From assembly GCA_934097015.1 (NCBI GenBank), contig CAKONF010000001.1:65082-129081 (forward strand): 64,000 nt of DNA, given 5' to 3'. Position 1 is the stretch's first letter, and every line of letters starts with the position of its first letter. Below, piece by piece: positions 9,801-61,293 of the stretch. A program made the position numbers and the translations under genes. The notes beneath the pieces were generated by a model. It was not told where the DNA came from. It saw nothing but the letters and a program-made list of their open reading frames with translations, and did not search any database. This stretch comes from an uncultured Bacilli bacterium (lineage in GTDB: Bacteria; Bacillota_I; Bacilli_A; RF39; UBA660).

Positions 9801-9823
9801 ACTTTATGGTCTATTTTTTTGAT
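9798..9823 (+). terminator. Intrinsic terminator of htpG
   Basis: Hairpin atagac-tttatg-gtctat followed by TTTTTTT. Confidence 0.6.
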
Positions 9824-9835
9824 GTTTGTTTTTTG

Positions 9836-22672: not shown

Positions 22673-22717
22673 AATAATGAAAAATGTCAATTATTGTCAA
22701 AAATTACCAAAATAATG

Positions 22718-22746
22718 TTGCATTGGTGAAAAAAATATTTTATACT
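22718..22746 (+). promoter_or_regulatory. Sigma-A promoter for the WXG gene
   Basis: TTGCAT (22718-22723), a 17-nt spacer, then TATACT (22741-22746). It gives an about 180-nt leader. Confidence 0.55.
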
Positions 22747-22874
22747 TTAGTTAGAGTAGTGAGTACTCTAAAAGACAATTATTATTTATGAAAAAATTAG
22801 AGATTATATATAACTAATCTCTTCTCTGGTGAGAAACAAGAGTTTACGAACAAACGTATGCTAAAAAAATCGTC

Positions 22875-22884
22875 GGGGGGGGGG
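22875..22884 (+). repeat. G10 homopolymer tract in the 5' leader of the WXG gene
   Basis: 'cgtcGGGGGGGGGGttatat'. A G10 run is extremely improbable in a roughly 22% GC genome. It sits about 50 nt upstream of the start codon. Confidence 0.9.
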
Positions 22885-22933
22885 TTATATAGAAAATATA
22901 TAATTTTTTTGTTTGGAGAAGGGAGTGTTTTTC

Positions 22934-23542
22934 ATGAATATTAATGTTAGAGATTTGGATTTAGGTTATAGTCAATGTGAGGAATTAAATACTTTATCTA
23001 AGACTAGTGGAACTAATTTAATTAGTAATTTGTCAACTGATATAAACAATTTAAAGGCTCACTGGAAAGGCACTGATGCTACAGCACATATAAACAATTT
23101 AATTAAAGTTTATGATGCTTTGGTTGCCTTGGTGACTGATGCTAAGGTTATTACTTGCAATTCAGGTAGTGCAATAAGCACTATTCAAGAAGTTAGAAGA
23201 AGTAATGGTGGTTCTGGAAATATTGGAGGTCCTTTAGATGGCAATGCGCCTGATGCAAGTAGTTTACCTACTATTGAATCAACAAGCGAATACTTTTGTG
23301 ATCCATCAGCTAGAATAGATTATACGTTATTAGAACAAATTTGTTCTGATTATTCTAGCTTTATTAATAATTTTAGAAGTCAAAAAGATGCTTTAATGTC
23401 AAATTGGACTGCAGGTGCCAACAGAGAAAATGCTGTTAAAGTATTTGATGAATTTGATTCGAATTCTGAGACATATAATAAATATTTAACAGATGCTAAA
23501 GAAAATTTAGGAATTGCTGTAAGTAATTTATCACAATTATAA
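22934..23542 (+). CDS. Tandem (double) WXG100-like T7SS substrate
   Basis: 202 aa from the ATG with SD 'ggagaagggag'. The first half has 'LKAHWKGTDATAH', a W-x-G motif in a helix-turn-helix. The second half has 'LMSNWTAGANRENA', a W-x-x-G variant. A Gly/Ser/Pro linker (RRSNGGSGNIGGPLDGNAPDASS) separates the halves. Confidence 0.6.
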   Translation: MNINVRDLDLGYSQCEELNTLSKTSGTNLISNLSTDINNLKAHWKGTDATAHINNLIKVYDALVALVTDAKVITCNSGSAISTIQEVRRSNGGSGNIGGPLDGNAPDASSLPTIESTSEYFCDPSARIDYTLLEQICSDYSSFINNFRSQKDALMSNWTAGANRENAVKVFDEFDSNSETYNKYLTDAKENLGIAVSNLSQL

Positions 23543-24281: not shown

Positions 24282-24298
24282 AAGTATGGGTGGTGTAT

Positions 24299-26575: not shown

Positions 26576-26707
26576 ATGGAAAAGAAAAAGATTATAATTA
26601 ATGGAATTGAAGAAGAAATATATGTTGTTAGTGATAAAGAAAAGGAAGATAATTTGGATTTAATAAATTTAGAAGATACTGTTGATTTATCTGAGGTAAT
26701 TAATCAT
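26576..26707 (+). CDS. 43-aa acidic small protein overlapping the start of the next gene
   Basis: MEKKKIIINGIEEEIYVVSDKEKEDNLDLINLEDTVDLSEVINHE. Its stop overlaps the ATG at 26706 (ATGAATGA). Confidence 0.35.
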
Positions 26708-28034
26708 GAATGAGTTTTTAGAAAGAATAAAGATAATTGCTAAATATAATCCCGGTTTATTAAATGATGATTTTTATGATATAGTTTATACTGAATTAAT
26801 AGGTTTTAATTTAGGACATAATCAAGAAAAATTTAAAAATATAAGTAATATGTTTAGTAAATGGATTGATAGAAATAATGTTAATGAAAGATTACGTACT
26901 TTTATAGATAATAGATATCCTTATTTTTGTCAATTTGTTAACCGTGGTGCTAAACCTATAAATAAAGATGCAATTAAATTATATATTCCACTTGATGAAG
27001 AGCATTTATATGAGGGTGTTAATAAATTATTTACTTTTATTACTAATATGGGTATTGAACATAATTCTAAAGTTGGTAGTGAAATTAGAAACGATAATGT
27101 TGTTATTAGAGTTAGTAATATTAAGGATGCTGAAACAATTATTAATTATGTTAAAAATGATAAATATTTAAGTGAAGGTTTACTTAATGTTAATCCATTT
27201 ACAATTAATTTAAATGGTGTAGGAATTGCTATGGATGGTATGCGTTCATATAATATAGAATTATCTAAATCTATTGCTAATTTTACTAAAATATTAAGTG
27301 AAAAAAATAGATTGGAAGATTTAAATGTAGATACTTTTAATGAATATTTAAATAATGTGAGAAGTAATGATAGAGATTTAAATATGATTAATGATATTCA
27401 AAAAAGAGTGACTGCAGGTCAAAGTTTTGATATGAGTTATGTTAAAGATATATTTTCTAAATATAATGGAAATGTTAATAATATAAATAAAGAAGGTATT
27501 TTAAAAGAGGCAATAATTGAAACATATAATAAATATCAAAGTATAGATCATGTTATTCATGCAATTGCTAGGTTTAGATATAATGGTGATGCTTGTGGAT
27601 TTACTAGAAATAATGGAGCAAGAGCTAGATTAGAAATGGGTTTAAGTTTAGAAGATGTTAATAATATTTTAAATAATTATCCGTATTATGGTGATAATAA
27701 GATTGAAGCATATATTAATAATTGTATAGGTTTAAATAATACAAAAGATGATAAATATCAATATTTAGTAAATGCTTACAAAGATACATATAATAAATAT
27801 GGTGATAGACAAGCTGATCTTGCTTTAAGAAAATATATTCTTAATAAAGAAGTAAAATACATTACTAATAGTAATGGCGCTAGAACTAATTTAGAAATGT
27901 ATTTAAAAGATAGTGATATAATGCAAACTTTAAAAAATGGAATGAATATAGATAGTTATTGTTCTTTAGAAGATATATGTGAAACTTTTATAAATGAAAT
28001 GCGACAATTGAATATGAGTCGTGGTAGTTATTAA
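26706..28034 (+). CDS. Hypothetical 442-aa protein with internal 'NGAR(A/T)xLEM' repeats, associated with the T7SS island
   Basis: 'GFTRNNGARARLEMGLSLEDVNNIL' and 'YITNSNGARTNLEMYLKDSDIMQTL' are repeated about 95 aa apart. There is no signal peptide or TM. Confidence 0.5.
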   Translation: MNEFLERIKIIAKYNPGLLNDDFYDIVYTELIGFNLGHNQEKFKNISNMFSKWIDRNNVNERLRTFIDNRYPYFCQFVNRGAKPINKDAIKLYIPLDEEHLYEGVNKLFTFITNMGIEHNSKVGSEIRNDNVVIRVSNIKDAETIINYVKNDKYLSEGLLNVNPFTINLNGVGIAMDGMRSYNIELSKSIANFTKILSEKNRLEDLNVDTFNEYLNNVRSNDRDLNMINDIQKRVTAGQSFDMSYVKDIFSKYNGNVNNINKEGILKEAIIETYNKYQSIDHVIHAIARFRYNGDACGFTRNNGARARLEMGLSLEDVNNILNNYPYYGDNKIEAYINNCIGLNNTKDDKYQYLVNAYKDTYNKYGDRQADLALRKYILNKEVKYITNSNGARTNLEMYLKDSDIMQTLKNGMNIDSYCSLEDICETFINEMRQLNMSRGSY

Positions 28035-36524: not shown

Positions 36525-39500
36525 ATGATAAAGGATGATGATTTAATAAAAATTATAAGTGAATTTAAAAGTGGAAATATTAATTATTTTATTAATAATT
36601 ATTCTTTTTCTGATAGAAAAATGTTTGTTGATAATATGTATCAATATAATGATGTTTTAGAAAATAATTTTGCGAAAGAACAAGATGTAATTATTTTTTT
36701 ATCATCAATATTTTCATATGAAGAGGCACGCAAAATATTAGTAGAAAATGAAATTAATTTTATTAATAGTGTTAATAGTATCTATATCTCATTATTTACT
36801 TTGCCGGATGAAGAAAAAAAGAAATATTTACATTATTTTAAGTATGATACTGAATTATTTAAAACTTTTGTAAATTCTTTTGCTGATGAGAATGTTTATA
36901 ATGAAAATGTTGTTAAAGGTGATATAAATTTAGAAAATATAAATAAATTAAATGATACTGAAAAAATAGACTTAATTAGACATTATTCAAAATATACTAA
37001 TATTGCAAAAATAATTAGTTCTATGAATGTTGTAAATATAATTACATACTTAAAAAATAATAAAATAGACAATAGAAGTTCTGAATATCTTTTAAAAATT
37101 ATAGATTTTGAAGTTTTAAAAAAAATATTATTTGATAGAGATATTTATGTGGAACAAAATTTTTTAGAATATATTATCAACAAACAAAGCTATTTACAAA
37201 AGATAGAATTATTGAAAAATAATAATATTTTAGAAAGACTAGATTCTTTATATTATTGTAAACTTTTATCTAATTTAAAAATTAATGATATTATACAAAT
37301 ATTAAAAAATATTGATTATAAAAAGCATTTATCAAAATATGATTTCCGATCTATTTTTAATAATAATGATATATATAAGGATAATAATGAGGATGAAGAA
37401 GATATTTCTTTTTTAATAGAGTTATATCAGGAAGGATATATTGATTTTAATACTTTTAAATATTTTCCTGATGATATTAAAGTTTTATGTTTTAACAATG
37501 ATAAATTATTGGATTCAGATAAAAAGATAATTTTATCTTTTATAGAAAATGATTTGATAAAAACTGATTTATATTTTTCTTTTAAAGGGAATAGATTAGC
37601 TAATTTTGATATTCAAGATCAGTATAATATTTTAAAAACATTAAATGATGATAATAAATTAAAACTTATTAAAATAGATAATTTAGATAATGATCTAAAA
37701 ATAAAATTAACAATGTCTTTAAGCGAAGATAATTTAAAATTTGATTATTTAGATTATATAGAACGTGAATATATGATTTCATCTATATTTAATGAGACTG
37801 ATGTATTAAACATTTTAAAAACATTAAATGATGAAAATAAAAGAAAATATATTCTTCAAAATAAATATGGTTTAAGTAAGACATTTATTAGTGATTTAAT
37901 AAGTTCTTTGCAATCAAGTGATATTAATGATAAGTTTATTATTGATAATTTTGAAATGTTTTTAAATCCAGATATAATGACAATGTCTGGAGTATATGTT
38001 TATTATAAAAATATTTTATTTCCTATAAAAGATGTTTCTGTAAAAATCAAATTATTAGAAATATTAAAGGATAAATTAGATGAACAATTTTTCATATCTT
38101 TAATTACAAATATTAAATATGATTATTTAGATGATTATAAAATAAAATTGATAAAAGAATCTTCATTTGAACTTACAGAATCTTATGTTGAATTATTAAA
38201 ATCTTTAAACAATGTATATAGGGGTATTGAAATTTTAGAAAATAATTCTATAGAAAATTCTAATATTATATATTTGAAATTGTTATATGAATTAAATAGT
38301 AAATATGATGAGTTAAAAATAAATTTTTTAAATAATAATATAGAATTATACAAAGATTCTCCTGATATAGTTGTTAGAGAACTTATTCAGAAAATTATTG
38401 ATAGCATTAATGTAGATAATGATATTAACAAGTTAAAATTGAAAATTAAATTTGCAATCAATTACAAGTTTAATAGTGATTTTATATATGATTTAATTAT
38501 ACACAATGAAGAGTTCATTGATAATAATTATGTATTTGATGATTTAATATTATATTGTTCTAAATGTTATAACTGTGACTATGAACGTTTATTAAATTTA
38601 ATTTCTAAATATGGAAATGTTGTTTTTAGATTTTTAAATAATAAAAATATAATTAGTTTTTTGAATTTAGATCAAGATAATTATAATAAAATAAAAAATA
38701 TGTTTGATTTTCAAGAAATGATAAAGACTAATGACCAACATATAGATAATGTATTAAGTGCTTTATTACAAAAAAAGTTTACATTAGATAATAAAGATAT
38801 GTTAGATATTTTTATTAGTATTAAAAATGCTATTATATCTAATAATATAGACGAAGTGTTAGTTATTTTAAATGATATTAGTAGTTATTTGTGTAATTGT
38901 TTATTAAAAAACATAAATTTAGATGATGATAATTATATTTCTAATATTCTTAGAGAATGTGCTTATAATGATATTAATGCTTTTATAAAAGACTTATATG
39001 ATAAGAATAAAATAGATAGTAATTTAAAAATAATAAATAAATTTACTAATAAATATATATTAGAAAAAAGAAATGATTTTGTTAAAAATAATTTTCATAG
39101 TTATAAAGGTAAATTATTGTTAGATGGTACATATGAAAAAAAATCTTTTATTAGATGTTTTATAGAACAAAAATCACAGTCTTTTATTATAGAACATTTA
39201 AAAAAACTAGATTTGAATAAGTTAACTTTAACTGAGAAAAAATTATTAGATAATGAAAAAATATTGTTTGATATAATTTCTTTAAAAAAGGGATTATATG
39301 TTGAAAATAAAGATAATATTTTAAAATTTATTAAAACATTTAATAGTGTTATGGATAAATATTATTTAAGTCATGATAAATTTTACATTAGTATTCAAGG
39401 GTGTAAATTATTATATAATATTCCTTATTCAAAAGAAGATATTTTATCTGTATTAAGTGGATTAGATATTAATTTGTTGAAAAATAAATTACTTAATGAT

Positions 39501-40814
39501 GATAAATTATATAGTGTATTAATTAAGTTATTGAAAAAATATAAACTTGTAGGTTGGGGCAATACTTTTTATAATTTATCAAATGAAGTTGATTTGGAAA
39601 TAGATAATGATACTATTAGTTCTTTCATAAATAATTTTTATAATATTTATCCGACTTTAGTTAAAAAAAACAATTTTGATAATCAAGAGAGAAAAATGAA
39701 TGGTATTATGGATCAGAGAGAAATTTCATTAACAAGCTTACTTAATGAAGCTTTAGTTTATGCTAGCTGTTCGTTTAAATATTCTAAGTTGCTTGGTAAA
39801 GATGATTTTAAATTAATTAAGAGTAATCCAACTCCAAATTCGGCACCTTTTACTAGTAAAGAAAGACTTAATGAGATAACAACTTTAATTAAAGATATGT
39901 ATTTGAGAAATAAAATTTCTATTCCACCATTAAATGAAAAAATAAATATATCTGGAAAAAATATAAATGTTTTAATAAGTAATAGTGTTGATATGACTAA
40001 TGTGACAATGGGTGAGAGAACTGGATCTTGTATGAGAATTAAAGGCCATGCTTATAGTTTGTTTAAATTTTGTTTAACAGATGTTAATGGTTTTCATATT
40101 AAATTTGTTAATGATAATGGTAAGTTTGTTAGTAGAGTAAGTGGTTTTAGGAATGGAAATACAGTATTTTTGAATCAATTGAGATATAGCTTAGATGAAA
40201 ATTATAGTAATGATGATTTAATAAGTTCTTTAAAAATATTTTCAGAGAAATTAATAGAAGAAACAAAAAATGATATTGTTCCTTTAGATAATGTTGTTAT
40301 TTCAAATGGTTATGCAATGGAGTCTTTGTCTAAAGAAAAAATTAATTTGGGTTGTAGTGATATAAAGAAAGGTCTATCGAGTGATTTTTATTCTGATATT
40401 GTTAGAAATGGTATTCTTCTTGCGACAAGTGGAGAAGATTTTATTCCTATTAGAACAACACAACATAATGAAAAATTATTTGATGTTAGTAGACAATCAG
40501 TTAATTATACTGATAACACTAATGAAATTATTGATAATATAGATAAGTTTAAAATGATAAGCGATGCTATTGGTGAAATGAATATTTCTTCCATGTCTGT
40601 TTTTAGTGAAATTTGTGAATATAAGAATGATATATCGTCTATGTATTTTGGAGAAGATTGGTATATAGTTTTTGATAAAAACAATAATATATTGGATGAG
40701 TTTATAATAGATAGAGGTTTTAACAAAGAATTTGTATATAATGAAATGAATGGAGTAAAAAATAATATAATGGGAGCTGTTTATGAGAAAAATAGGGATT
40801 ATAAAAAATTATGA
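36525..40814 (+). CDS. Giant 1429-aa repeat-containing hypothetical protein with no signal peptide
   Basis: A continuous ORF with a good RBS. It has internal repeats ('NILKTLNDDNK', 'NILKTLNDENK') and a less biased C-terminal about 350 aa ('GERTGSCMRIKGHAYSLFKFCL...'). Confidence 0.6.
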   Translation: MIKDDDLIKIISEFKSGNINYFINNYSFSDRKMFVDNMYQYNDVLENNFAKEQDVIIFLSSIFSYEEARKILVENEINFINSVNSIYISLFTLPDEEKKKYLHYFKYDTELFKTFVNSFADENVYNENVVKGDINLENINKLNDTEKIDLIRHYSKYTNIAKIISSMNVVNIITYLKNNKIDNRSSEYLLKIIDFEVLKKILFDRDIYVEQNFLEYIINKQSYLQKIELLKNNNILERLDSLYYCKLLSNLKINDIIQILKNIDYKKHLSKYDFRSIFNNNDIYKDNNEDEEDISFLIELYQEGYIDFNTFKYFPDDIKVLCFNNDKLLDSDKKIILSFIENDLIKTDLYFSFKGNRLANFDIQDQYNILKTLNDDNKLKLIKIDNLDNDLKIKLTMSLSEDNLKFDYLDYIEREYMISSIFNETDVLNILKTLNDENKRKYILQNKYGLSKTFISDLISSLQSSDINDKFIIDNFEMFLNPDIMTMSGVYVYYKNILFPIKDVSVKIKLLEILKDKLDEQFFISLITNIKYDYLDDYKIKLIKESSFELTESYVELLKSLNNVYRGIEILENNSIENSNIIYLKLLYELNSKYDELKINFLNNNIELYKDSPDIVVRELIQKIIDSINVDNDINKLKLKIKFAINYKFNSDFIYDLIIHNEEFIDNNYVFDDLILYCSKCYNCDYERLLNLISKYGNVVFRFLNNKNIISFLNLDQDNYNKIKNMFDFQEMIKTNDQHIDNVLSALLQKKFTLDNKDMLDIFISIKNAIISNNIDEVLVILNDISSYLCNCLLKNINLDDDNYISNILRECAYNDINAFIKDLYDKNKIDSNLKIINKFTNKYILEKRNDFVKNNFHSYKGKLLLDGTYEKKSFIRCFIEQKSQSFIIEHLKKLDLNKLTLTEKKLLDNEKILFDIISLKKGLYVENKDNILKFIKTFNSVMDKYYLSHDKFYISIQGCKLLYNIPYSKEDILSVLSGLDINLLKNKLLNDDKLYSVLIKLLKKYKLVGWGNTFYNLSNEVDLEIDNDTISSFINNFYNIYPTLVKKNNFDNQERKMNGIMDQREISLTSLLNEALVYASCSFKYSKLLGKDDFKLIKSNPTPNSAPFTSKERLNEITTLIKDMYLRNKISIPPLNEKINISGKNINVLISNSVDMTNVTMGERTGSCMRIKGHAYSLFKFCLTDVNGFHIKFVNDNGKFVSRVSGFRNGNTVFLNQLRYSLDENYSNDDLISSLKIFSEKLIEETKNDIVPLDNVVISNGYAMESLSKEKINLGCSDIKKGLSSDFYSDIVRNGILLATSGEDFIPIRTTQHNEKLFDVSRQSVNYTDNTNEIIDNIDKFKMISDAIGEMNISSMSVFSEICEYKNDISSMYFGEDWYIVFDKNNNILDEFIIDRGFNKEFVYNEMNGVKNNIMGAVYEKNRDYKKL

Positions 40815-41004
40815 TGGTAATGTAGGTAGTGTGATAGAATTAGATAATTTTGATGAAAAAAACATAAAAAAATATTTATTAATGAAAAAAGATATTCTTT
40901 ATAACTATGCAAAAAATGGTGATATTGTTAAATTTGATGCTGAGATGTTTTCATCTATTTGTGATGATGTTTTAGTAGCAAGATTTGTAAAAAAATTAAA
41001 ATAG
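40783..41004 (+). CDS. 73-aa hypothetical protein overlapping the 3' end of the giant ORF
   Basis: ATG within the last 32 nt of the upstream gene. The 'GIIKNYDGNVGSVIELDNFD' beta-rich start looks like a small domain. Confidence 0.4.
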   Translation: MRKIGIIKNYDGNVGSVIELDNFDEKNIKKYLLMKKDILYNYAKNGDIVKFDAEMFSSICDDVLVARFVKKLK

Positions 41005-41024
41005 AATGTATAAGATAGTACATT

Positions 41025-41303
41025 CTATTTGTTTGTAAATTCATAATAATTTCTTTCTGATAATTTATCTAATAAATCAACTAATTCTGGTATATCTTCT
41101 TCATAATCTAAAATATCTTCTATTTTTATCATTAAGTCTCTTAGACTATTTGATGTTTCGTAATCAATATTATATCTTTTTAATATTTCTATTTGATTAT
41201 TTGTTAAATACAGATTGTTATTTATTTTAATAAGTTTATTGTTGTCAAAGTCTATGTTATTTAATATATTTTTAATTTCTTCATTCATTTTTTTCACTCT
41301 CAA
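41025..41303 (-). CDS. Small helical hypothetical protein
   Basis: 92 aa. It overlaps the upstream minus-strand ORF by 23 nt. Confidence 0.4.
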   Translation of the reverse strand: MRVKKMNEEIKNILNNIDFDNNKLIKINNNLYLTNNQIEILKRYNIDYETSNSLRDLMIKIEDILDYEEDIPELVDLLDKLSERNYYEFTNK

Positions 41304-41697
41304 ACACTTTATTATTAATTATAATGTTGTAATTATTATCAATTTTTCCTGTTATGTCGTTGCTAAATATAACATTATTATTTTTGATTGTAATATTTCC
41401 TTCGTAATATTCTTTTTCACAATTATCATTTGTTATGTTCATTGTATATGATTTATCTTTATTTATTATTATGTAATCTTTAGTATTACATTCTGTAATA
41501 TTTATTTTCTTGCCTGTTATTTTATTTATATTTGTTGCATTTATATATGGTAATAACTTGTTATATGTTAAATGAATAACAAGTGTTATTAATATAATAA
41601 TTACTATTATTATGAGTATTTTTAATGGATTAGTTTTTTTCTTTTCTACATATGGTAGAGAATCAACAGTTTTTATTTTTTGTTTTAAAGTAGTCAT
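41281..41697 (-). CDS. Membrane-anchored (signal-anchor) Asn-rich hypothetical protein
   Basis: N-terminal TM 'ILIIIVIIILITLVIHL', then a beta-rich N/I/K domain containing two Cys. Confidence 0.45.
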   Translation of the reverse strand: MTTLKQKIKTVDSLPYVEKKKTNPLKILIIIVIIILITLVIHLTYNKLLPYINATNINKITGKKINITECNTKDYIIINKDKSYTMNITNDNCEKEYYEGNITIKNNNVIFSNDITGKIDNNYNIIINNKVFESEKNE

Positions 41698-41838
41698 ACA
41701 GTCACTTCCTAGAAATATTATAATATATATTTATTAAACAAACTAGCATTATATTTAATTTTGTAGAAACTTAGATAAAACAATTGTTTTCATGTAAAAA
41801 ATATGGTATAATTTTTATAGTATGGGAGGCTAGATATT

Positions 41839-42801
41839 ATGTATATCAATTCCTTTATAACAGAGTTATCTAAGAAAATAGATACTGTTGATGAGCAGTT
41901 AAAAGATTTTCAAAGTAAGATGGATAAAATAAATGATGTAAAAAATATGCTTACATTGAAAACATTAAAGGATATAGATGATTTAAAAGGGGAGGATTTG
42001 GCCTTACTTGATAAAGATGACTTCATGAAAATATTAGAAGTATTTAATTTTGATGAAAAAGAAGAAAAGATGAAAATTTTCTTTAATGCTAGTGTTAGTA
42101 TTAAAGTTAATCAAAAGTTGGTTAGTGATGGAGAAATTGATGTTGATAATAAAGAACAAGTTTCTACATATGTTAATTGGCTTAATGAACAAATAAAATA
42201 TATTAAAGAATATATAAAAGATTTTAATAATAATAATAAAGAATATTATAATAGTTTAAAAATAAGTGATACTTTATATAAAAAATATATAAGTTATTTT
42301 AAAAATGATAAATTAATTAAGCCTATATATGATATAGAAGAATTTAATGAAGTTCTTAAAAAGAGTGGAATTATAACTAGTGAAAAGTGGCAAATTTTAG
42401 AATATATTGGTGAAAAAAATATAGATTTTGCTAGAAAAAGTGAAGCTGATAAAAAGAATGACATTATAGAGTATAGTGATGAAGAAATATTATCATTTGT
42501 TGAAAGCATATTAATTAGAGAGAAAAATTTAATTAACAATATTACTGATGAAATACTAAAAACATCTTTAGAAATAATGGATTATGATGATGAAAAATTA
42601 GAAAAAATGAATTTAACTAATGATATGTTGGTTAAATATCAAAAAGTTCCTATATTAGATACAATGAATAAGATGTATAAGGAAACTAAAATGATGTTAA
42701 AGGAAGATAAAGATAGTGATGCTATTAAGATAGAGAAGAATTTAAAAGATTTACTTGAATTAGTAGATAGTTACGACGTTATTAAAAAAATTGAAAGTTA
42801 G
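41839..42801 (+). CDS. Hypothetical protein (first gene of a 4-gene operon upstream of pcrA)
   Basis: RBS 'atgggaggctagatattATG'. Acidic and helical. Confidence 0.5.
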   Translation: MYINSFITELSKKIDTVDEQLKDFQSKMDKINDVKNMLTLKTLKDIDDLKGEDLALLDKDDFMKILEVFNFDEKEEKMKIFFNASVSIKVNQKLVSDGEIDVDNKEQVSTYVNWLNEQIKYIKEYIKDFNNNNKEYYNSLKISDTLYKKYISYFKNDKLIKPIYDIEEFNEVLKKSGIITSEKWQILEYIGEKNIDFARKSEADKKNDIIEYSDEEILSFVESILIREKNLINNITDEILKTSLEIMDYDDEKLEKMNLTNDMLVKYQKVPILDTMNKMYKETKMMLKEDKDSDAIKIEKNLKDLLELVDSYDVIKKIES

Positions 42802-42812
42802 GAGGTTATATC

Positions 42813-43727
42813 TTGGAATTTATTAATGTATTATTAGAATATTTTTCTATGTTTAAAAAATATGAAGAGTCAAATGAAAATGATAAAATTATTTTGAAGA
42901 ATATAGATAATATTATTAATATTTTAAATAATGTTAAAAATCGTACTGATAAAATTCAATATATTACTAATTATAAAGAAGTTAGTAAGATTGCTACTAA
43001 ATGTGATTTAAGTAGTATATTGGATGATTATTTGAAAGAAAAATATGATATAACAAAGGATAGTGTTAGTGGTTATCTAAGAGATATTGTTAATAATATA
43101 AATAAAGGTATAGATTTTATTATGTATGATATTATGCTTAATTTAAATAGGTATAATATATATTTGATGAATAAGAAAGTTAAATCACAAGATATACCAA
43201 TTACTTCTGATATTAATTTTAATACTATTGATGTTAAATTAAAAGATGTATTAAGTTATTTAGAGGTTAGTGAAAACGATATAGATAAAGATTTATTAAG
43301 TGATTTAAGTAAATATGTTAATCTAGATAAATTTAAAGCTTTTGCTATAAGTATTAAGACTGATAGTGGTATGAGAAGAGTTTTATTTGATAAATTAGAA
43401 GATAAAAATGTTTTAATTAGTATTATGCTTCATTCAAGTTTAGAAAATGTTGATAATATTATTAAAATTTTTATGAGTGAAAATGCTAATATTAATAAAG
43501 TTATTTCAAATATTCCTTCTATATTTATTAAAGATTTGGTTAGCAGCAAATGCAAATATAATTGTGTTATGTGTAATTATGATAACTTTGTTAATAATTA
43601 TAGCTTGATTAAAGAAAATGGTGTAGATTTTAAGAAAATGCTTAATTTTGATATTTTCTTTATAAATGATTTTAATGTTAATAGGGGTTTAGTAGATAAA
43701 TTAAATAAAATGGAGGTAAGTAATTAA
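42813..43727 (+). CDS. Hypothetical protein
   Basis: RBS 'ttaggagg'. Contains 'CKYNCVMC'. Confidence 0.5.
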   Translation: MEFINVLLEYFSMFKKYEESNENDKIILKNIDNIINILNNVKNRTDKIQYITNYKEVSKIATKCDLSSILDDYLKEKYDITKDSVSGYLRDIVNNINKGIDFIMYDIMLNLNRYNIYLMNKKVKSQDIPITSDINFNTIDVKLKDVLSYLEVSENDIDKDLLSDLSKYVNLDKFKAFAISIKTDSGMRRVLFDKLEDKNVLISIMLHSSLENVDNIIKIFMSENANINKVISNIPSIFIKDLVSSKCKYNCVMCNYDNFVNNYSLIKENGVDFKKMLNFDIFFINDFNVNRGLVDKLNKMEVSN

Positions 43728-44401
43728 TGGGGGCAATATGTAAAAATGTTTTAGAACATGTAGGTGGGATTCTAGTTAGTAATCCTAATGTTGTTTTTGA
43801 AAATATACATGTTTTAAATAGATATGGTATTGATTTGACTAATGATAGTAATAATAATGGTTATGTAATACTAGGTATGCAATCTTTACCTCTTAGATTA
43901 GATTATTTAATTGAAAAAGGATTATGGAAAAAAAGTGATGGTATTACTTTAGATAATATAGATTTTATCAGAGGACTTAACATACAAAAGACTTATGGAG
44001 AAGCTAAGGCTTGCAAAGATAAATCACTTTATGGTAAAATAGATATTGCTTCGTCTGATGAAGAGGTTTTACTTGATAAAATGTTTGTCAATGAAAACTT
44101 TGACGAAGTACGTTTAGAAAATCTTTTTAATGACCATAATGTAATAAAGGATATAGTTTTAGAACTTGATAATAAATATTTAAATAAAGAAGGAACTTAT
44201 TCTTTTGGAGTACATGTAGTTAGTAGAGAGAGAGTATTACGTAATTTATGTAATTATAGAGGTAAAGAAAAAGACTTGGATATGTTTGTTAGTTGTTTAA
44301 AATATAAAAATAATGTGGCAGATATAGATGAAGTTATTAATGCTGTAAAACCTCTATTAGAAATGGGTGAGGAAAGTGTTAAGTTATCTCAAAGAATATG
44401 A
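43727..44401 (+). CDS. Hypothetical protein
   Basis: Translationally coupled (TAATG). RBS 'ggaggtaag'. Confidence 0.5.
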   Translation: MGAICKNVLEHVGGILVSNPNVVFENIHVLNRYGIDLTNDSNNNGYVILGMQSLPLRLDYLIEKGLWKKSDGITLDNIDFIRGLNIQKTYGEAKACKDKSLYGKIDIASSDEEVLLDKMFVNENFDEVRLENLFNDHNVIKDIVLELDNKYLNKEGTYSFGVHVVSRERVLRNLCNYRGKEKDLDMFVSCLKYKNNVADIDEVINAVKPLLEMGEESVKLSQRI

Positions 44402-56155: not shown

Positions 56156-56874
56156 AGTATTTAATTACAGTTAGTTATGATGGTAGCAAATACTATGGAT
56201 TTCAAAGATTAAATGATTTACCTAGTATACAAAAAGAATTGGAAGATGCATTAAGTGTTATAAATAAAGATAAAGTAGAAGTAAAAGGTAGTGGTAGAAC
56301 AGATAGAGGTGTTCATGCTTTAGGACAAAGATGTCATTTTGAACTTAAATATGATATACCATGTGATAGACTTATTAATGCTATAAATAGTTTGTTAAGT
56401 AATTATGTTAGGGTAATTGATTGTATTAAAATTGATGATGATTTTCATGCTAGATTTAATGTTAAAAGAAAAAAGTATAAATATATAATTAATATGGGAA
56501 AATATGATGTTATTAAAGAAGATTATTTATATAATTATTGTAAAAAGTTAGATATTAAGAGTATGAAGAGAGCTAGTAAATATTTAATTGGTAAACATTC
56601 TTATAAGGTTTTTGTTAGTGGTGAAAGAGAAAATTATAATAGTGAAATATTTAATATTAATTTTAATAGAGATAAAGATATTTTAACAATAGAATTTACT
56701 GGTAAAAGTTTTTATAGATATATGGTTAGGAATATGGTTGGTGCTTTAATCTTAGTTGGATGTGGTAAAATAAGTGTAGAGGAATTTAGAAATATGATAG
56801 ATAATGAAAATAAAGAATATAGTTATTTAACCGTACCTGCAAATGGTTTATATTTAGAAAGTGTGGAATATTAA
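56152..56874 (+). CDS. truA: tRNA pseudouridine(38-40) synthase TruA
   Basis: 'YLITVSYDGSKYYGFQRL...GSGRTDRGVHALGQ' contains the catalytic Asp motif. Confidence 0.85.
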   Translation: MKYLITVSYDGSKYYGFQRLNDLPSIQKELEDALSVINKDKVEVKGSGRTDRGVHALGQRCHFELKYDIPCDRLINAINSLLSNYVRVIDCIKIDDDFHARFNVKRKKYKYIINMGKYDVIKEDYLYNYCKKLDIKSMKRASKYLIGKHSYKVFVSGERENYNSEIFNINFNRDKDILTIEFTGKSFYRYMVRNMVGALILVGCGKISVEEFRNMIDNENKEYSYLTVPANGLYLESVEY

Positions 56875-57245
56875 TGAATAAAAAAGGATTTACTTTAATT
56901 GAATTAATAACTGTTATAGCATTATTAAGTATTGTTGGAATAATTACTTTACCTAAAATAAATAAAGCTTTTAAAAGTTCTAGAGCAGATCAATTAGAAG
57001 AAGTAAGAGAAAACATAGTTAAAAGTACAGAAGTATACTTAAATAGTAGTTGTGGTAAAGATAATTATAATAAATTAATAAATGATGATAGTATAAGAAT
57101 ATATTTAAGTAGTATTAAAGATTGTGGATTAATTGATAATAAAATATATAATCCTGTTAGTGGTGACTATTTTAATATTGATAATGAATATGTTGATGTT
57201 AAAATAGATGAAGTTGGTATATTAGATTATAAATTAAGTTTTTAG
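56874..57245 (+). CDS. Type IV pilin-like protein (ComGC-like prepilin)
   Basis: 'MNKKGFTLIELITVIALLSIVGIIT' is the class III signal with a G/FTLIE cleavage-methylation motif. Confidence 0.75.
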   Translation: MNKKGFTLIELITVIALLSIVGIITLPKINKAFKSSRADQLEEVRENIVKSTEVYLNSSCGKDNYNKLINDDSIRIYLSSIKDCGLIDNKIYNPVSGDYFNIDNEYVDVKIDEVGILDYKLSF

Positions 57246-57287: not shown

Positions 57288-57725
57288 ATGAATGAAAATA
57301 AAGAATTCTTAACTTATTTATATCAAGATAGTGATATGGCTTTAAATAATTTAACTTTGTTGATTAAGAAAATTAATAAGAAAGATAATAAAATTAAAAG
57401 AGTAATAGAAGATATTATTAAAGGATATGAAGAATACTTAAAAAAGATTAAGAAGTATATGAAAGATAATAAATATAGTATTGAAGGAAAAACTTTAATT
57501 AGTAAAATGGGTGCATATTTAGGAATAAATATGGAAATTATGAAAGATAATAGTGATAGTCGTATTGCTGATATGTTGATACAAGGTATGACTATGGGAG
57601 TACTTAGTGTTAGTAAGAAAATAGATAATTACAAAGATAGAATTGATAAAGAATTAATTAAATTAGGAGAAGAATTTAAAGAATATCAACAAAAAAGTAT
57701 TGATAAATTGAAAGTATATTTATAA
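57288..57725 (+). CDS. Hypothetical helical protein
   Basis: 145 aa with a good RBS. Confidence 0.45.
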   Translation: MNENKEFLTYLYQDSDMALNNLTLLIKKINKKDNKIKRVIEDIIKGYEEYLKKIKKYMKDNKYSIEGKTLISKMGAYLGINMEIMKDNSDSRIADMLIQGMTMGVLSVSKKIDNYKDRIDKELIKLGEEFKEYQQKSIDKLKVYL

Positions 57726-57842: not shown

Positions 57843-59435
57843 ATGAATAGACTTCAAAAAATTATAGTTAGTGTAACAGGAATATTTTTAGTACTTTTAA
57901 TTCTTGTAGGATTAACTTACGCATATTTTCTAACAAGAATAAATGGAAATAGGAACGATAAAAGTATAAGTGTATCAACAGCAAACTTAGAATTAAAATA
58001 TGATGATATAGAACAAGTATTAATAAGTGAAGAGAATGTAGAACCAGGTAAAACATGGATTAAAAAATTTAGTGCAACAAATACAGGAAATAAAAAAGTA
58101 GAGTCATATGGAGTTGCACTCGAAAATGTAATAAATACATTAAAAAGAACAGAGGATTTAGTATATACATTAAATTGTACTAGTAGTTTAGGAACTACTT
58201 GCAATAAAGTAGAAGATGAACAAGAGTTTCCAACAATAGGAAAAATATTAATTACAAATTCAATAGAATCAAAAGAAGTACAAAGTTATGAATTAACTAT
58301 TACATACAAAGATCAAAATATAGATCAAAGTATAGATATGAATAAACAATTTAGTGGAAAAATAAATATAGTAAACCCAAGTACATTTAATCCATATGTT
58401 GGTTCAATGTTAAATAGTGTAATAATTGGAAGTGCAAAAACTGCAAGTGAAAGTAGTGACGCAACAAGAACAACATTTGGTAGTGAAGTGACTGAATTCA
58501 CATCAATATCAGGAGAAAATGAAAAGGTATTAAATAATGCCCCAGATGATTATGGAATAAGTTATTACTTTAGAGGAAATGTAATAGATAATTATGTATC
58601 ATTTGCAAACAAAACATGGAGAATCGTTAGAATAAATGGAGATGGAAGTATAAGACTTGTACTTGATGATGTGGCAAGAGATTCAAGTGGAAATATAATA
58701 AAATCATCATTTAATTCTAGTTTTAATGATAATGCATATGTAGGATATATGTATGGAACAGCAGGAAGTACAACATATGATGCAACACATAAGAATATTA
58801 ATGATAGTACAATAAAAACTAAAGTAGATAAATGGTATGAAGATAATATAAAAACAAATTATGCAAATTATTTATCAGATACATTATTCTGTAATGATAA
58901 AACTCTTGCATCAAATGGAATAGGTGGGGTAGCAACTCAATTGGGTTATGGAACTAGTAAAACATATTATGCATCAACAGAGAGATTACAATATAGCACA
59001 GGAACAACAGCGATAACAACATCAAAACCAACATTCAAATGTGCAGAAAATGCAACAAATACATATTCAAGATTTACAGTAAATGAAACAACATTATTAA
59101 ATGGAAATAAAACAAATGGAGATTTAACATATCCAATTGGTTTACTCTCAGCAGATGAAGTAGCATATGCAGGAGCATATAAATATAATCAAACAAATAA
59201 AACATATTATTTATATAATTCATCTATAACTTCTAATTGGTGGCTTTCGTCTCCGTTCGTCTCTAGTGGTTCGGTTGCTTACGGGTGGTGCGTTATTTAT
59301 TCGGATGTTGACTTCAACAACTTCTACGTCTTCGACACTTTTGCTTTCCGCCCTAGTTTGAGTCTAAAGGCTAGTGTGCTAATAAATGGTGGAGATGGAA
59401 CTAGTTCAAATCCTTACACAGTGAAGTTGAGTTAA
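57843..59435 (+). CDS. Secreted protein with a SipW-cognate-class signal peptide (TasA/camelysin-like N-terminus) and a C-terminal 'NWWLSSP' motif
   Basis: Start at ATG 57843 (SD 'aggagag'). 'IFLVLLILVGLTYAYFLTRINGN' matches the SipW-cognate signal consensus (...GTYAYF.D). The last about 70 codons use GC-rich codons atypical of this genome. Confidence 0.6.
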   Translation: MNRLQKIIVSVTGIFLVLLILVGLTYAYFLTRINGNRNDKSISVSTANLELKYDDIEQVLISEENVEPGKTWIKKFSATNTGNKKVESYGVALENVINTLKRTEDLVYTLNCTSSLGTTCNKVEDEQEFPTIGKILITNSIESKEVQSYELTITYKDQNIDQSIDMNKQFSGKINIVNPSTFNPYVGSMLNSVIIGSAKTASESSDATRTTFGSEVTEFTSISGENEKVLNNAPDDYGISYYFRGNVIDNYVSFANKTWRIVRINGDGSIRLVLDDVARDSSGNIIKSSFNSSFNDNAYVGYMYGTAGSTTYDATHKNINDSTIKTKVDKWYEDNIKTNYANYLSDTLFCNDKTLASNGIGGVATQLGYGTSKTYYASTERLQYSTGTTAITTSKPTFKCAENATNTYSRFTVNETTLLNGNKTNGDLTYPIGLLSADEVAYAGAYKYNQTNKTYYLYNSSITSNWWLSSPFVSSGSVAYGWCVIYSDVDFNNFYVFDTFAFRPSLSLKASVLINGGDGTSSNPYTVKLS

Positions 59436-59475
59436 AGTATGGATAAAGGATTCAAAAAGCATAGGCACATGCTGT

Positions 59476-59727
59476 TTGAGAGGATATCTAATGGCGAAGT
59501 CGCACCGTAGATGTGTGGGTGTAAATCTAAAAAAATTGGGTACTTCTAATTGGTGGCTTTTGTCTCCAAACAATTATAGTGGTTCAAACGCGAACGAATG
59601 GAACGTTAATGGTTTGAATGGAACATCGACAACAACAACGTCAACAACTCTAACGCTTTTCGCCCTAGATTCCTACTATGTAGAATATTTAATAATATTT
59701 GCTATACTGAGTATTAAAAATATATAA
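59476..59727 (+). pseudogene. Diverged, frameshifted partial copy of the 3' end of the upstream gene
   Basis: 'TSNWWLLSPNNYSGSNANEWNVNG' parallels 'TSNWWLSSPFVSSGSVAYGWCV' upstream. In another frame 'NNSNAFRPRF' parallels 'FDTFAFRPSL'. The same atypical codon usage is present. Confidence 0.5.
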
Positions 59728-60100
59728 TTTTTAATGAGATGAAGTAAATGCTATATGCATTAATCTAAATAGATTGGAAACAAGATTTATTCCCTGATTT
59801 AATTATAATTAAACTAAAAATAGAGTAAGTACACAATATAGTTTATTGTAATCTATGTTGTTATATGGCTTACTAATTTTTTTGTGAAAATATAAAAACA
59901 AAATTAGAATTAGAAGAAAATTAGACTATTTTAAAAAGTATGACGTTGATAAGTATAAAGTAGTTGTTAATAGTTATAAGGATATTTTTTAATGTGTAAT
60001 AGACAAAAATGGTTAAAAAAATATATTTGTTTAGTGTACCAAACAAAATCATCAAAAAAGGCAATTTTGTTTAATGTGCAAAACAAAATAGGATTAAATA

Positions 60101-60160
60101 TTCGTTATAACTCCAAAAAAGTATGAAAATATTTGATTTTTTTGGAGTTATAAAAAAAAA
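60101..60160 (-). terminator. Bidirectional terminator with a 16-bp perfect inverted repeat
   Basis: TTATAACTCCAAAAAA, a 16-nt loop, then TTTTTTGGAGTTATAA followed by A-runs and T-runs. It lies immediately 3' of the minus-strand LemA gene. Confidence 0.65.
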
Positions 60161-60709
60161 TCAAAGTTTAAAATCTTTGATTTCATCATCAAACATATTT
60201 TTTCCATCAAAATAGTTTCTAAGTTTTATTTTATGAAATTTAGCAATTATGTTTGTTGGAAATTTTTTTATTAATAAATTTATTTCTGTTGTGTATTTAT
60301 TATAAAATGCTTTTGCTGCTTCTAATATTTCATCACTATCTTTTAAATCATTTATTATACTGATATATTCTTCATTATCTTCTAAAGATTTATAATCATT
60401 TTTTACTTGATGAATTAAGTTTTCACCTTCTACAATTTTTCTATCTAAATCAAAATTTGATATATTATCTTTTTTTAATTTTTCTAAATCTTTAAAATAT
60501 GTAACTTCTTTTTTTAATAATTTATTTATTGTTGTAGAAGATTTCATTATTAAATCATATTTATTTCTTAATTCATTATCTATTATACTTTCTGATTCAT
60601 TAATTTTTATATTCTTTTCTTGTAAATTATTAAAATTATATATATAACTTATTATTAATATTCCTATAAGTATTATTGCAATTAAAATTATTATCATTAT
60701 TATATTCAT
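60161..60709 (-). CDS. LemA-family membrane protein
   Basis: N-terminal TM 'IIMIIILIAIILIGILIISYI' followed by an about 150-aa helical domain. Size and topology are typical of LemA. Confidence 0.5.
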   Translation of the reverse strand: MNIIMIIILIAIILIGILIISYIYNFNNLQEKNIKINESESIIDNELRNKYDLIMKSSTTINKLLKKEVTYFKDLEKLKKDNISNFDLDRKIVEGENLIHQVKNDYKSLEDNEEYISIINDLKDSDEILEAAKAFYNKYTTEINLLIKKFPTNIIAKFHKIKLRNYFDGKNMFDDEIKDFKL

Positions 60710-60765
60710 TTACATCACCTACTATATAAGTATAGCATAAATATTAAAAAAATTGTAAAATAATA

Positions 60766-61293
60766 TTGGTGATATATGTGAATATTAAAAAAGTTGTTGT
60801 TGGTGAATTAGAAACTAATTGTTATATTGTAGAAAATGATAATGAATGTTTGATAATAGATCCTGGTAGTGAAAGTGATAAAATAATTAAAAATATTGAT
60901 AAAAAAGTAGTTGGTATACTTTTAACACATAGACATTTTGACCATGTTGGAGCATTAGAAAACATTTCTAAGTATTATAAAGTTTCTGTATATGATATTA
61001 ATAATTTACATGAGGGTATGAATGTTATTGGTAGTTTTAAATTTGAAGTTAGATATAATTTAGGACATACTATGGATTCTATAAGTTTTATTTTTGATAA
61101 TATTATGTTTAGTGGAGATTTTATATTTAAAGGTTGCATTGGTAGATGCGATTTAGGTGGAGATTTTACTTTGATGAAGGAAAGTATTAAATCTATTTTG
61201 AAATCTAATGTAAATTATAAAATATATCCTGGACATGGAGATAGTACTTATTTATTTGATGAAAAAAATATGCTTGAAAGTTATATAAAATAA
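60766..61293 (+). CDS. MBL-fold metallo-hydrolase
   Basis: 'VGELETNCYIVEN...LIIDPG' and 'LLTHRHFDHVGA' (HxHxDH). The true start is possibly the GTG at 60778. Confidence 0.8.
   Translation: MVIYVNIKKVVVGELETNCYIVENDNECLIIDPGSESDKIIKNIDKKVVGILLTHRHFDHVGALENISKYYKVSVYDINNLHEGMNVIGSFKFEVRYNLGHTMDSISFIFDNIMFSGDFIFKGCIGRCDLGGDFTLMKESIKSILKSNVNYKIYPGHGDSTYLFDEKNMLESYIK

What the first reader, a model, noticed from the sequence alone, without database searches (positions are those of the whole stretch)
59221..59727. Abrupt switch to GC-rich, atypical codon usage at the 3' end of the SipW-signal protein gene, plus a frameshifted downstream partial copy
From about 59221 the gene uses codons such as TCG, CCG, GTC, TAC, GGG, TGC, GAC and CGC, which are almost absent elsewhere in the window. 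The same composition continues through a downstream fragment (59476-59727). That fragment re-encodes the 'SNWWL(S/L)SP ... AFRP' motifs in two frames. This pattern fits a recombined, horizontally acquired C-terminal module with a leftover or silent alternative cassette. It may be a C-terminal switching system.
Basis: seen in the sequence. Interest (0 to 1): 0.6.

Follow-up and report, generated by a model that had tools for sequence, protein, structure and literature searches.

The report
Decayed diversity-generating retroelement: variable and template repeats
The GC-rich gene end and its downstream "partial copy" are the variable and template repeats of a diversity-generating retroelement, a known reverse-transcriptase system that rewrites a protein's binding tip, but here the enzyme genes are deleted and the template is damaged, so it is most likely a fossil.

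Summary
Window 59221-59727 is the most GC-rich 507-nt stretch of the 64-kb window (38.5% against 23.5%). A 128-nt segment at the gene's 3' end (59229-59356) recurs 185 nt downstream (59542-59668) with a 1-nt deletion.

This is not a recombination cassette or a foreign module. It is the variable repeat (VR) and template repeat (TR) of a diversity-generating retroelement (DGR). 26 of 40 TR adenines differ in the VR, against 12 of 87 other bases (p=1.3e-8). In frame, the TR is rich in AAC/AAT codons.

Two related loci, syntenic where flanks are available, carry target-TR-MutS-like-Avd-RT. In the window those three genes are deleted; only about 55 broken codons of the RT's 3' end remain (59873-60070). 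The window's TR has five private GC-to-AT changes plus the frameshifting deletion. The VR no longer mirrors the TR, and near-identical strains share the same VR.

Best reading: a frozen DGR target beside a decaying template. It is a new member of a known kind, of modest interest. The open point is that one relative with the same deletion has a perfect A-only TR/VR pair, which hints at an RT acting in trans or a very recent loss.

The parts
57843..59435 (+). DGR target gene (530 aa). It has an N-terminal SipW/camelysin-type signal region, a beta-sandwich N-terminal domain, a DUF6273-like (C-type-lectin-like) C-terminal half that carries the VR, and a conserved tail.
   Evidence: The gene is called as 530 aa on 5 public contigs. 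Peptidase_M73 matches the N-terminal region at 22.4 bits against a cut-off of 22.5. Homologues P0024 and P0061 hit DUF6273, and P0024 passes the cut-off. In the AF2 model (pLDDT 72.5) the best BFVD matches include DUF6273 phage proteins at E 2.3e-5. There are 5726 homologues, hypervariable only in the VR.
59229..59356 (+). Variable repeat (VR), 128 nt, codons 463-505 (TSNWWLSSP...AFRP).
   Evidence: It aligns to the TR. 26 of 40 TR adenines are changed against 12 of 87 non-adenines. It is 46.9% GC and 13% A.
59343..59356 (+). GC-rich 3' end of the VR (GCTTTCCGCCCTAG). VR/TR homology stops exactly after it. The VR-specific flank follows (TTTGAGTCTAAAGGCT...), in the position of an IMH-type element.
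   Evidence: No hairpin was predicted downstream.
59436..59541 (+). Conserved non-coding spacer upstream of the TR (39.6% GC). It is probably the 5' part of the TR transcript.
   Evidence: It is conserved at DNA level in L005, L006, L007, L009, L011, L013 and L042 despite frame-shifting 1-nt differences. Its function is inferred.
59542..59668 (+). Template repeat (TR), 127 nt, AAC/AAT-rich in the VR frame. It is decayed: five private GC-to-AT substitutions and loss of one base (near 59621) relative to six related TRs.
59669..59885 (+). Highly conserved AT-rich block downstream of the TR. It sits where the spacer region of the DGR RNA, which primes cDNA synthesis in the Bordetella phage, would lie.
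   Evidence: It is nearly invariant among the window, L007, L013, L009 and L011. No Rfam family matches. Its role is inferred.
59887..59898 (.). Deletion junction. Sequence to the left matches L042 up to just before the MutS-like gene. Sequence to the right matches the 3' end of the L042 RT gene. The MutS-like gene, avd and most of the RT gene are missing.
   Evidence: Window 59408-59898 matches L042 66-555, and window 59887-60067 matches L042 1587-1766. L042 genes are listed.
59873..60070 (+). Remnant of the RT gene's 3' end (about 55 codons), broken by stop codons and a frame change.
   Evidence: tblastn of P0122 residues 88-140 gives 53% identity, E 6e-16, with the alignment. It is 82% identical in DNA to L042 (E 1e-45). 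The two ends of P0122 align to full-length DGR-type RTs.

Best explanation
The region is a diversity-generating retroelement (DGR) locus that has lost its enzymes.

How the intact system works (established DGR mechanism):
- The non-coding template repeat (TR) is transcribed.
- A dedicated reverse transcriptase, helped by Avd, copies it into cDNA and misincorporates opposite template adenines.
- The cDNA replaces the variable repeat (VR) at the 3' end of the target gene. This randomises AAC/AAT-encoded positions on the ligand-binding face of a C-type-lectin-like domain.

What the window holds:
- The target is a secreted, SipW/TasA-type-signal protein with a DUF6273-like C-terminal domain.
- The VR is 59229-59356. 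Its GC-rich rare codons are the product of adenine randomisation on an already GC-rich scaffold.
- The TR is 59542-59668.

Why it looks inactive:
- The MutS-like gene, avd and most of the RT gene, which follow the TR in the related loci L007 and L013, have been removed by one deletion. About 55 broken RT codons remain at 59873-60070.
- The TR has since picked up five GC-to-AT changes and a frameshifting 1-nt deletion.
- The VR no longer matches the TR at non-adenine positions.

The VR is therefore a frozen record of past diversification and the TR is a decaying relic.

Shown: the adenine bias, the RT remnant, the deletion map, the intact cassettes in relatives and the lack of an RT in the 64 kb. 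Inferred: the present inactivity, the surface or ligand-binding role of the target, and the RNA roles of the TR flanks.
For: 1. Adenine-specific divergence: 26/40 TR adenines against 12/87 other positions, Fisher p=1.3e-8.
2. Read in the VR frame, the TR is a run of AAC/AAT codons, although the host uses AAC at only 6 per 1000.
3. The syntenic relative L007, and L013 (a short contig holding only the target's 3' part), carry target-TR-MSL-Avd-RT. Their scores: MutS_I E 1.3e-5; bAvd E 1.5e-9 and DivGenRetAVD E 1.2e-8; RVT_1 at 32.2 bits with an IGSYISQ motif. Their TR/VR pairs are almost purely A-specific: 20/39 against 1/89, and 19/38 against 3/90.
4. The window keeps the RT's 3' end as a pseudogene, and the deletion junction is mapped. 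Other decay states exist: L042 has an internally deleted RT of 143 aa, and L043 an avd::RT fusion of 87 aa next to LemA.
5. No RT in the window. No ORF of at least 150 aa hits RVT_1. tblastn with two DGR RTs finds nothing. No YxDD motif lies in an ORF that looks like an RT; the four YxDD hits fall in unrelated ORFs.
6. Window-private TR changes are all GC-to-AT plus one deletion, and the VR keeps the ancestral bases at those sites.
7. The VR is identical in five other assemblies. One of them (L044) has two nonsynonymous SNPs elsewhere in the same gene.
8. The homologue family has 106 distinct VR peptides in 120 proteins, with conserved flanks.
9. DUF6273 is a described C-lectin-like DGR target domain (PMC10743442). 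MSL plus avd is a described DGR architecture (PMC5758913).
Against: Only 64 kb of the genome was visible, so an RT encoded elsewhere cannot be excluded. L009/L010 share the same RT deletion junction yet have a perfect A-only TR/VR pair (0/90 non-A). Four lineage-specific TR variants are mirrored in that VR. Either the deletion is very recent or was spread by recombination, or an RT acts in trans in that lineage. The strains sharing the window's VR are nearly clonal (0-3 SNPs in 8.6-16 kb), so the 'frozen VR' evidence is weak on its own. The window protein itself misses Pfam DUF6273, and the model of its C-terminal half is only moderately confident. Even against the best-fitting related TR, the VR has 7 non-A mismatches, so its actual template is not identified.
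Confidence: 0.8

Rival explanations
1. The DGR is still active. The TR/VR module has lost its own RT but is served in trans by an RT, Avd and MSL encoded elsewhere in the genome. The downstream copy would then be a working template.
For: L009/L010 carry the same deletion but have 0/90 non-A mismatches, and TR-private variants are copied into the VR. Genome CAKOOU holds a complete cassette (L007) and also a second TR-like/VR locus with no RT in the 3.6 kb available (L006). The TR flanks remain highly conserved in RT-less loci.
Against: The window's TR carries a 1-nt deletion that would frameshift the target if copied in full. There are 12 non-A mismatches, and the VR retains ancestral bases where the TR has mutated, so no transfer has happened since those changes. 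No RT lies in the 64 kb. The VR is identical across six assemblies.
Confidence: 0.13
2. One reading: a recombinational C-terminal switching system, in which a silent downstream cassette is exchanged into the expressed gene by gene conversion, as in pilE/pilS-type antigenic variation.
For: There is one expressed copy and one silent partial copy in direct orientation, sharing exact 18-nt and 14-nt ends. The whole target gene appears to recombine between alleles or paralogues.
Against: There is a single silent copy, not a repertoire. Differences concentrate on adenines of the silent copy (p=1.3e-8), which gene conversion does not produce. Converting from this copy would install a run of Asn codons and a frameshift. 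Relatives carry RT and Avd next to the silent copy.
Confidence: 0.03
3. A horizontally acquired GC-rich C-terminal module, with a decaying tandem duplicate left beside it and no diversification mechanism.
For: The GC jump is abrupt, and the downstream copy is frameshifted and non-coding.
Against: The same GC-rich segment, flanked by conserved AT-rich sequence, is present in all 120 listed homologues of this low-GC lineage. The divergence is adenine-specific. The RT remnant and the intact cassettes in relatives explain the copy.
Confidence: 0.02

Closest known systems
Bordetella phage BPP-1 DGR (mtd-avd-TR-brt), the prototype of mutagenic retrohoming
   Same: A VR of about 130 nt at the 3' end of a target gene and a nearby non-coding TR. 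Differences lie at TR adenines. The TR has AAC-rich codons. The shared 3' end is GC-rich and homology stops after it. Related loci hold an Avd and a small RT with an SQ-containing motif 4.
   Different: Gene order is target-TR-MSL-avd-RT. The locus is chromosomal in an uncultured low-GC gut bacterium, not a phage. The target is a signal-peptide protein, not a tail fibre. In the window the RT, Avd and MSL are deleted and the TR is damaged. No hairpin was detected after the VR.
MSL-containing DGRs (architecture D of Wu et al. 2018, PMC5758913), which include the Legionella pneumophila DGR
   Same: Relatives L007, L013 and L042 have a small MutS-domain-I-like gene together with avd between the TR and the RT.
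   Different: The paper files the Legionella VR under the DUF1566/DUF823/Fib_succ_major group, not DUF6273. The window itself retains none of the accessory genes.
DUF6273 / C-type-lectin-like DGR targets of gut phages (tentaclins and Faecalibacterium prophage targets; PMC10743442, PMC11792537)
   Same: The WWL-SP ... FRP motif family. Homologues hit DUF6273. The structure model matches phage DUF6273 proteins.
   Different: Here the domain is fused to a TasA/camelysin-type signal and a beta-sandwich N-terminal domain in a cellular protein. The hits are weak, and the window protein itself is below threshold.
Bacteroides DGRs that diversify pilus-tip adhesins (bioRxiv 10.1101/2024.11.15.621889)
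   Same: A chromosomal gut-bacterial DGR aimed at a presumably surface-fibre-associated protein. A prepilin-type gene sits two genes upstream, and a paralogue lies beside Tad-like pilus genes.
   Different: A different phylum, pilus type and target fold context. The association with a fibre or pilus is only inferred here.

Membership tests
Diversity-generating retroelement (DGR) | A TR/VR repeat pair whose differences fall predominantly at adenines of the TR | tested here: met
   26/40 adenines against 12/87 other bases differ, Fisher p=1.3e-8.
Diversity-generating retroelement (DGR) | A DGR-clade reverse transcriptase encoded with the TR | tested here: not met
   The window has no RVT_1 ORF and no tblastn hit to DGR RTs. 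Only a remnant of about 55 codons remains at 59873-60070. The feature is met in L013 (RVT_1 32.2 bits, IGSYISQ). L007 holds the N-terminal 116 aa of the same RT (95% identical to L013) at its locus edge.
Diversity-generating retroelement (DGR) | An accessory protein (Avd, and here MSL) adjacent to the TR and RT | tested here: not met
   Absent from the window through the deletion mapped at 59887-59898. Present in L007, L013 and L042: bAvd E 1.5e-9, NF033474 E 1.2e-8, MutS_I E 1.3e-5.
Diversity-generating retroelement (DGR) | The VR lies at the C-terminus of the target, in a C-type-lectin-like (or Ig-like) ligand-binding fold | tested here: inconclusive
Diversity-generating retroelement (DGR) | In the VR reading frame, TR adenines are concentrated in AAC/AAT codons | tested here: met
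   Once the 1-nt deletion is allowed for, the TR reads as a run of AAC/AAT codons (...AAC AAT TAT ... AAC GCG AAC GAA TGG AAC GTT AAT ... AAC AAC AAC GTC AAC AAC...). The host uses AAC at 6.2 per 1000.
Diversity-generating retroelement (DGR) | TR and VR of equal length and identical at non-adenine positions, as expected after recent retrohoming | tested here: not met
   127 nt against 128 nt, with 12 non-A mismatches, so only 68% of substitutions are at A. Relatives show 0-5 non-A mismatches.
Diversity-generating retroelement (DGR) | A target-recognition element at the VR's 3' end (GC-rich IMH followed by a hairpin or cruciform), as in BPP-1 | tested here: inconclusive
   The GC-rich end CCGCCCTAG is shared, and homology ends exactly there with distinct VR and TR flanks. 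No stable DNA hairpin lies in the 45 nt after the VR in the window, L007 or L009 (z-scores +0.9 to +1.2).
Diversity-generating retroelement (DGR) | Ongoing VR diversification within populations | tested here: not met
   The VR is identical in the window, L001-L003 and L044. L044 differs by two nonsynonymous SNPs elsewhere in the gene. This is a weak test because the strains are nearly clonal. Read-level data could not be examined.

The most novel reading that the evidence does not exclude
In this clade of gut Bacilli, TR/VR modules that have lost their own RT, Avd and MSL may remain functional 'satellite' templates. An RT encoded elsewhere in the genome would serve them, so that one enzyme set serves several TRs. 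Supporting observations: L009/L010 keep a perfect A-only TR/VR pair, with TR-private variants copied into the VR, despite sharing the window's RT deletion. Genome CAKOOU has a full cassette (L007) plus a second, RT-less TR-like/VR locus (L006). The window would then be one such satellite, caught after its template broke.
Probability: 0.15. Interest if true: 0.6.

Novelty: new member of a known kind. Interest (0 to 1): 0.3.

Why it matters
It replaces a speculative "switching cassette or horizontal transfer" reading with a specific, well-understood mechanism. It also shows that a sharp GC and rare-codon island at a gene's 3' end in a very AT-rich genome can be a DGR footprint. The set of related loci forms a natural decay series: an intact cassette, an internally deleted RT, an avd::RT fusion, and a full deletion with a mutating template. 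Such a series could be used to study how DGRs are lost and how long a "frozen" variable protein persists. The target is a secreted TasA/camelysin-signal protein with a lectin-like tip, next to pilin-like genes, in an uncultured human-gut lineage. That points to a variable adhesin-type function. If the RT-less loci of some relatives are still being rewritten, trans-acting DGR enzymes serving several templates would be a more interesting finding.

Tried and rejected
- RT in the window: a YxDD motif scan, Pfam on every ORF of at least 150 aa, and tblastn with two DGR RTs found none.
- RT N-terminus of L007 against 5.8 billion proteins: only two truncated relatives, P0121 and P0122. They turned out to be informative decay states, but no full-length copy was recovered.
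- L007 ends inside the RT gene, so its integrity beyond residue 116 was not seen. L013 (95% identical) extends only to motif 4, at the contig end.
- PDB Foldseek of the full-length model: only weak N-terminal beta-sandwich hits (TasA fibre, archaeal pili, E at least 1.6e-3) and no C-lectin hit.
- Hairpin after the VR: none.
- Rfam on 59300-60200: none. Terminator scan: none. Promoter-like sites at chance level.
- Direct tblastn of distant full-length RTs on the remnant: not significant. The remnant is recognisable only through the close relative P0122/L042.
- The idea that ORF 59476-59727 encodes a small protein was rejected: the frame is not conserved among relatives.
- The idea that the 1-nt deletion is an assembly error was rejected: it is identical in five assemblies.
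Full report
**1.

The window is very AT-rich (23.5% GC). The flagged interval 59221-59727 is 38.5% GC. Only 0.06% of 507-nt windows reach that value, and the global maximum (38.7%) starts at 59159.

GC by sub-region:

| Region | Coordinates | GC |
|---|---|---|
| Target gene before the repeat | 57843-59228 | 27% |
| Variable repeat (VR) | 59229-59356 | 46.9% (only 13% A) |
| Rest of the gene | 59357-59435 | 37% |
| Spacer | 59436-59541 | 39.6% |
| Downstream copy (TR) | 59542-59668 | 40.9% |
| After the TR | from 59669 | about 20% |

TCG, CCG, GTC, TAC, GGG, TGC and CGC are used at 0.2-2.1 per 1000 in 14 long ORFs, and GAC at 3.9. Eleven of the 42 repeat codons come from a class that makes up 2.3% of codons elsewhere.

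The two copies share exact 18-nt and 14-nt ends that occur nowhere else in the window, against 0.04 and 0.02 matches expected by chance. The downstream copy is one base shorter, so its SNWWLLSP and NAFRP fall in different frames. The deletion is identical in four other assemblies, so it is real.

**2. What the two copies are**

With the single indel placed, 38 positions differ. Twenty-six fall on the 40 adenines of the downstream copy and 12 on its 87 other bases (Fisher p=1.3e-8).

Read in the frame of the gene, the downstream copy is a run of AAC/AAT codons, although AAC is used at only 6 per 1000 in this genome. The gene copy has mixed codons at those places.

This is the signature of a diversity-generating retroelement (DGR). 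The gene copy is the variable repeat (VR, 59229-59356, codons 463-505 of a 530-aa protein). The downstream copy is the template repeat (TR, 59542-59668).

The composition anomaly follows directly. The invariant scaffold of the repeat is GC-rich (TCG, GCG, GGT, TGG, CGC CCT). In the VR, most adenines were replaced by other bases.

**3. Relatives show the complete machine**

An exact-pattern scan of species-representative genomes returned five loci from uncultured gut Bacilli/'Tenericutes' MAGs. A protein scan of metagenomes returned 29 more.

- L007 is syntenic with the window: ORF6N, two ABC ATPases, TruA, a pilin-like gene, a 145-aa helical protein, then the target.
- L007 continues after its TR with a 154-aa ORF hitting MutS domain I (E 1.3e-5).
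- Next comes a 116-aa ORF hitting bAvd (E 1.5e-9) and the NCBIfam DGR Avd model (E 1.2e-8).
- Last comes the start of a reverse transcriptase.
- L013 is a 3.1-kb contig holding the 3' part of a target gene and the same cassette. It extends the same RT (95% identical) through motif 3 and an IGSYISQ motif 4. It hits RVT_1 at 32.2 bits against a cut-off of 29.6.
- More distant full-length RTs (365 aa, PIGNMTSQ, YMDD), most with an MSL-like match just upstream, occur in L014-L035.
- MSL together with avd is a described DGR architecture (PMC5758913).

TR/VR comparison across loci:

| Locus | TR adenines changed | Non-A positions changed | Gap columns |
|---|---|---|---|
| window | 26/40 | 12/87 | 1 |
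| L007 | 20/39 | 1/89 | 0 |
| L013 | 19/38 | 3/90 | 6 |
| L009 | 17/38 | 0/90 | 0 |
| L011 | 17/40 | 5/88 | 0 |
| L006 | 24/38 | 9/90 | 0 |

**4. The window has lost the enzymes**

- No ORF of at least 150 aa in the 64 kb hits RVT_1.
- tblastn with the L013 and L017 RTs finds nothing.
- No YxDD motif lies in an ORF that looks like an RT; the four YxDD hits fall in unrelated ORFs.

DNA comparison maps a single deletion. Window 59408-59898 matches L042 up to just before its MSL gene. Window 59887-60067 matches the 3' end of the L042 RT gene (82% identity, E 1e-45).

The residue of the RT is visible at 59873-60070. It covers about 55 codons, 53% identical to P0122, with stop codons and a frame change.

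Other contigs show other decay states. L042 has MSL, avd and an RT lacking its catalytic core (143 aa). L043 has MSL and an 87-aa avd::RT fusion directly upstream of LemA.

The window's deletion junction is shared with L009/L010 and L011, which are colinear with it over 59400-60800.

**5. The template is decaying and the VR looks frozen**

Against six related TRs, the window's TR has five private substitutions: C20T, G27A, C33T, G57A and C74T. All are GC-to-AT, as expected for unconstrained drift in this genome. It has also lost one base.

At those sites the VR keeps the ancestral bases, so no template-to-VR transfer has occurred since. Copying the present TR in full would frameshift the last roughly 45 codons.

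The window has the worst TR/VR pair of the six compared. Its VR fits the L007 TR better (7 non-A mismatches) than its own (12). The VR also shares TAT, where all TRs have GGK, with the VRs of L012 and L005. This suggests it was written from a different TR allele.

The same VR is present in five other assemblies. One of them (L044) differs by two nonsynonymous SNPs elsewhere in this very gene. These strains are almost clonal, so this is supporting evidence only.

**6. The target protein**

- The N-terminus matches the camelysin/TasA-type (SipW-dependent) signal region, at 22.4 bits against a cut-off of 22.5.
- The AF2 model (mean pLDDT 72.5) has a confident beta-sandwich N-terminal domain. Its weak PDB neighbours include the TasA fibre and archaeal pilins.
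- For the C-terminal half, homologues hit DUF6273, and the best BFVD matches include phage DUF6273 proteins (E 2.3e-5).
- DUF6273 has been described as a C-type-lectin-like DGR target domain (PMC10743442).
- Among 120 close homologues there are 106 different VR peptides between conserved flanks.

I infer a secreted or surface protein whose lectin-like tip was diversified. A ComGC-like prepilin gene lies two genes upstream. A paralogue (L012) sits beside Tad-like pilus genes. A link to a fibre or pilus is possible but untested.

**7. Rivals**

- Active DGR served by a trans RT: not excluded, because only 64 kb was visible. L009/L010 share the deletion yet have a perfect pair in which four TR-private variants are mirrored in the VR. 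For the window itself, the broken TR and the unmatched VR argue against it.
- Recombinational cassette switching: does not explain the adenine bias. It would also install an Asn run and a frameshift.
- Horizontal acquisition: contradicted by the presence of the same segment in every listed homologue.

**8. Comparison with known systems, and novelty**

In mechanism and parts this is a standard DGR of the MSL-plus-Avd architecture with a DUF6273-type target. The window's copy fails the membership features that require an RT, an accessory gene, and a clean, equal-length TR/VR pair. I therefore file it as a degenerate member, not an active one.

It is a new member of a known kind. Specialist interest is modest (0.3). 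It rests on the natural decay series and on the possibility that RT-less TR/VR modules in relatives are still served in trans.

Noticed in passing
window 57843-59435 compared with L007, L010, L011, L012: The whole target gene, not only the VR, is a divergence hotspot. It is 67-69% aa identical to syntenic orthologues, and the N-terminal beta domain only about 60%. The flanking pilin-like, 145-aa and LemA proteins are 95-99% identical. The window's allele is closest (84% overall, N-terminal domain 90%, tail 100%) to L012, a copy at a different locus with no TR nearby. This suggests allele or paralogue replacement by recombination.
   Followed up: partly
L009/L010 (TR 9747-9874, VR 9435-9562; RT remnant 10064-10243): These loci have the same RT/Avd/MSL deletion as the window but a perfect A-only TR/VR pair (17/38 against 0/90). 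Four TR-private variants are mirrored in the VR. Either the loss is very recent or was spread by recombination, or an RT acts in trans.
   Followed up: partly
L006:1240-1551 (- strand) and L005:1997-2124 (- strand): These are hybrid repeat copies. L006 has a TR-like, AAC-rich copy with the TR-type 5' flank, inside a 104-aa ORF that keeps a coding-type 3' tail (…AFRSSINLKKDIKFIGTGTS…). L005 has a copy with the TR-type 5' flank, an A-diversified body and the VR-type 3' flank. They look like intermediates between a truncated target duplicate and a TR, or like a TR copy that became a target.
   Followed up: partly
L042 (1312-1743) and L043 (819-1082): These are independent decay states of the same cassette: an RT lacking motifs 3-6 (143 aa), and an 87-aa fusion of the avd N-terminus to an RT fragment, directly upstream of LemA.
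   Followed up: yes
window 58060 and 58090: The only two differences between the window and L044 over 15 kb are both nonsynonymous (I73T, N83S). They lie 30 nt apart in the N-terminal domain of the target protein.
   Followed up: no
window 59669-59885: The AT-rich non-coding block after the TR is almost invariant among five lineages whose target genes differ by about 30% in protein sequence. It is a candidate for the structured 3' part of the DGR RNA. There is no Rfam match, and the sequences are too similar to test covariation.
   Followed up: partly
window 56874-57245 and 57288-57725: A ComGC-like prepilin (N-terminal methylation motif) and a 145-aa all-helical protein with no family match sit immediately upstream of the target in the syntenic relatives L005, L007, L010 and L011. 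A possible functional link to the target was not tested.
   Followed up: no
window 18077-23542: A 1531-aa FtsK/SpoIIIE-family ATPase (EssC-like) is followed by a protein with a weak WXG100 C-terminal match (26.7 bits, cut-off 27.3). This is probably a type VII secretion locus.
   Followed up: no
window 36525-44401: A 1429-aa ORF and three following ORFs (320, 304 and 224 aa) have no Pfam match at E<=0.001. ORFs 24290-26122 (610 aa) and 26706-28034 (442 aa) also have none.
   Followed up: no
L004:5536-7998 (- strand): Two target-family genes lie in tandem in UMGS1124. The upstream gene has a matching VR. The downstream gene is only 32% identical and ends with WFRPSIILK.
   Followed up: no
L009 compared with L010, upstream of the target: An identical target protein and TR sit in two different upstream contexts: pilin genes, LeuRS and GyrA in L009, against the usual ABC-TruA-pilin block in L010. 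This indicates a rearrangement or a mis-join at the gene's 5' side.
   Followed up: no
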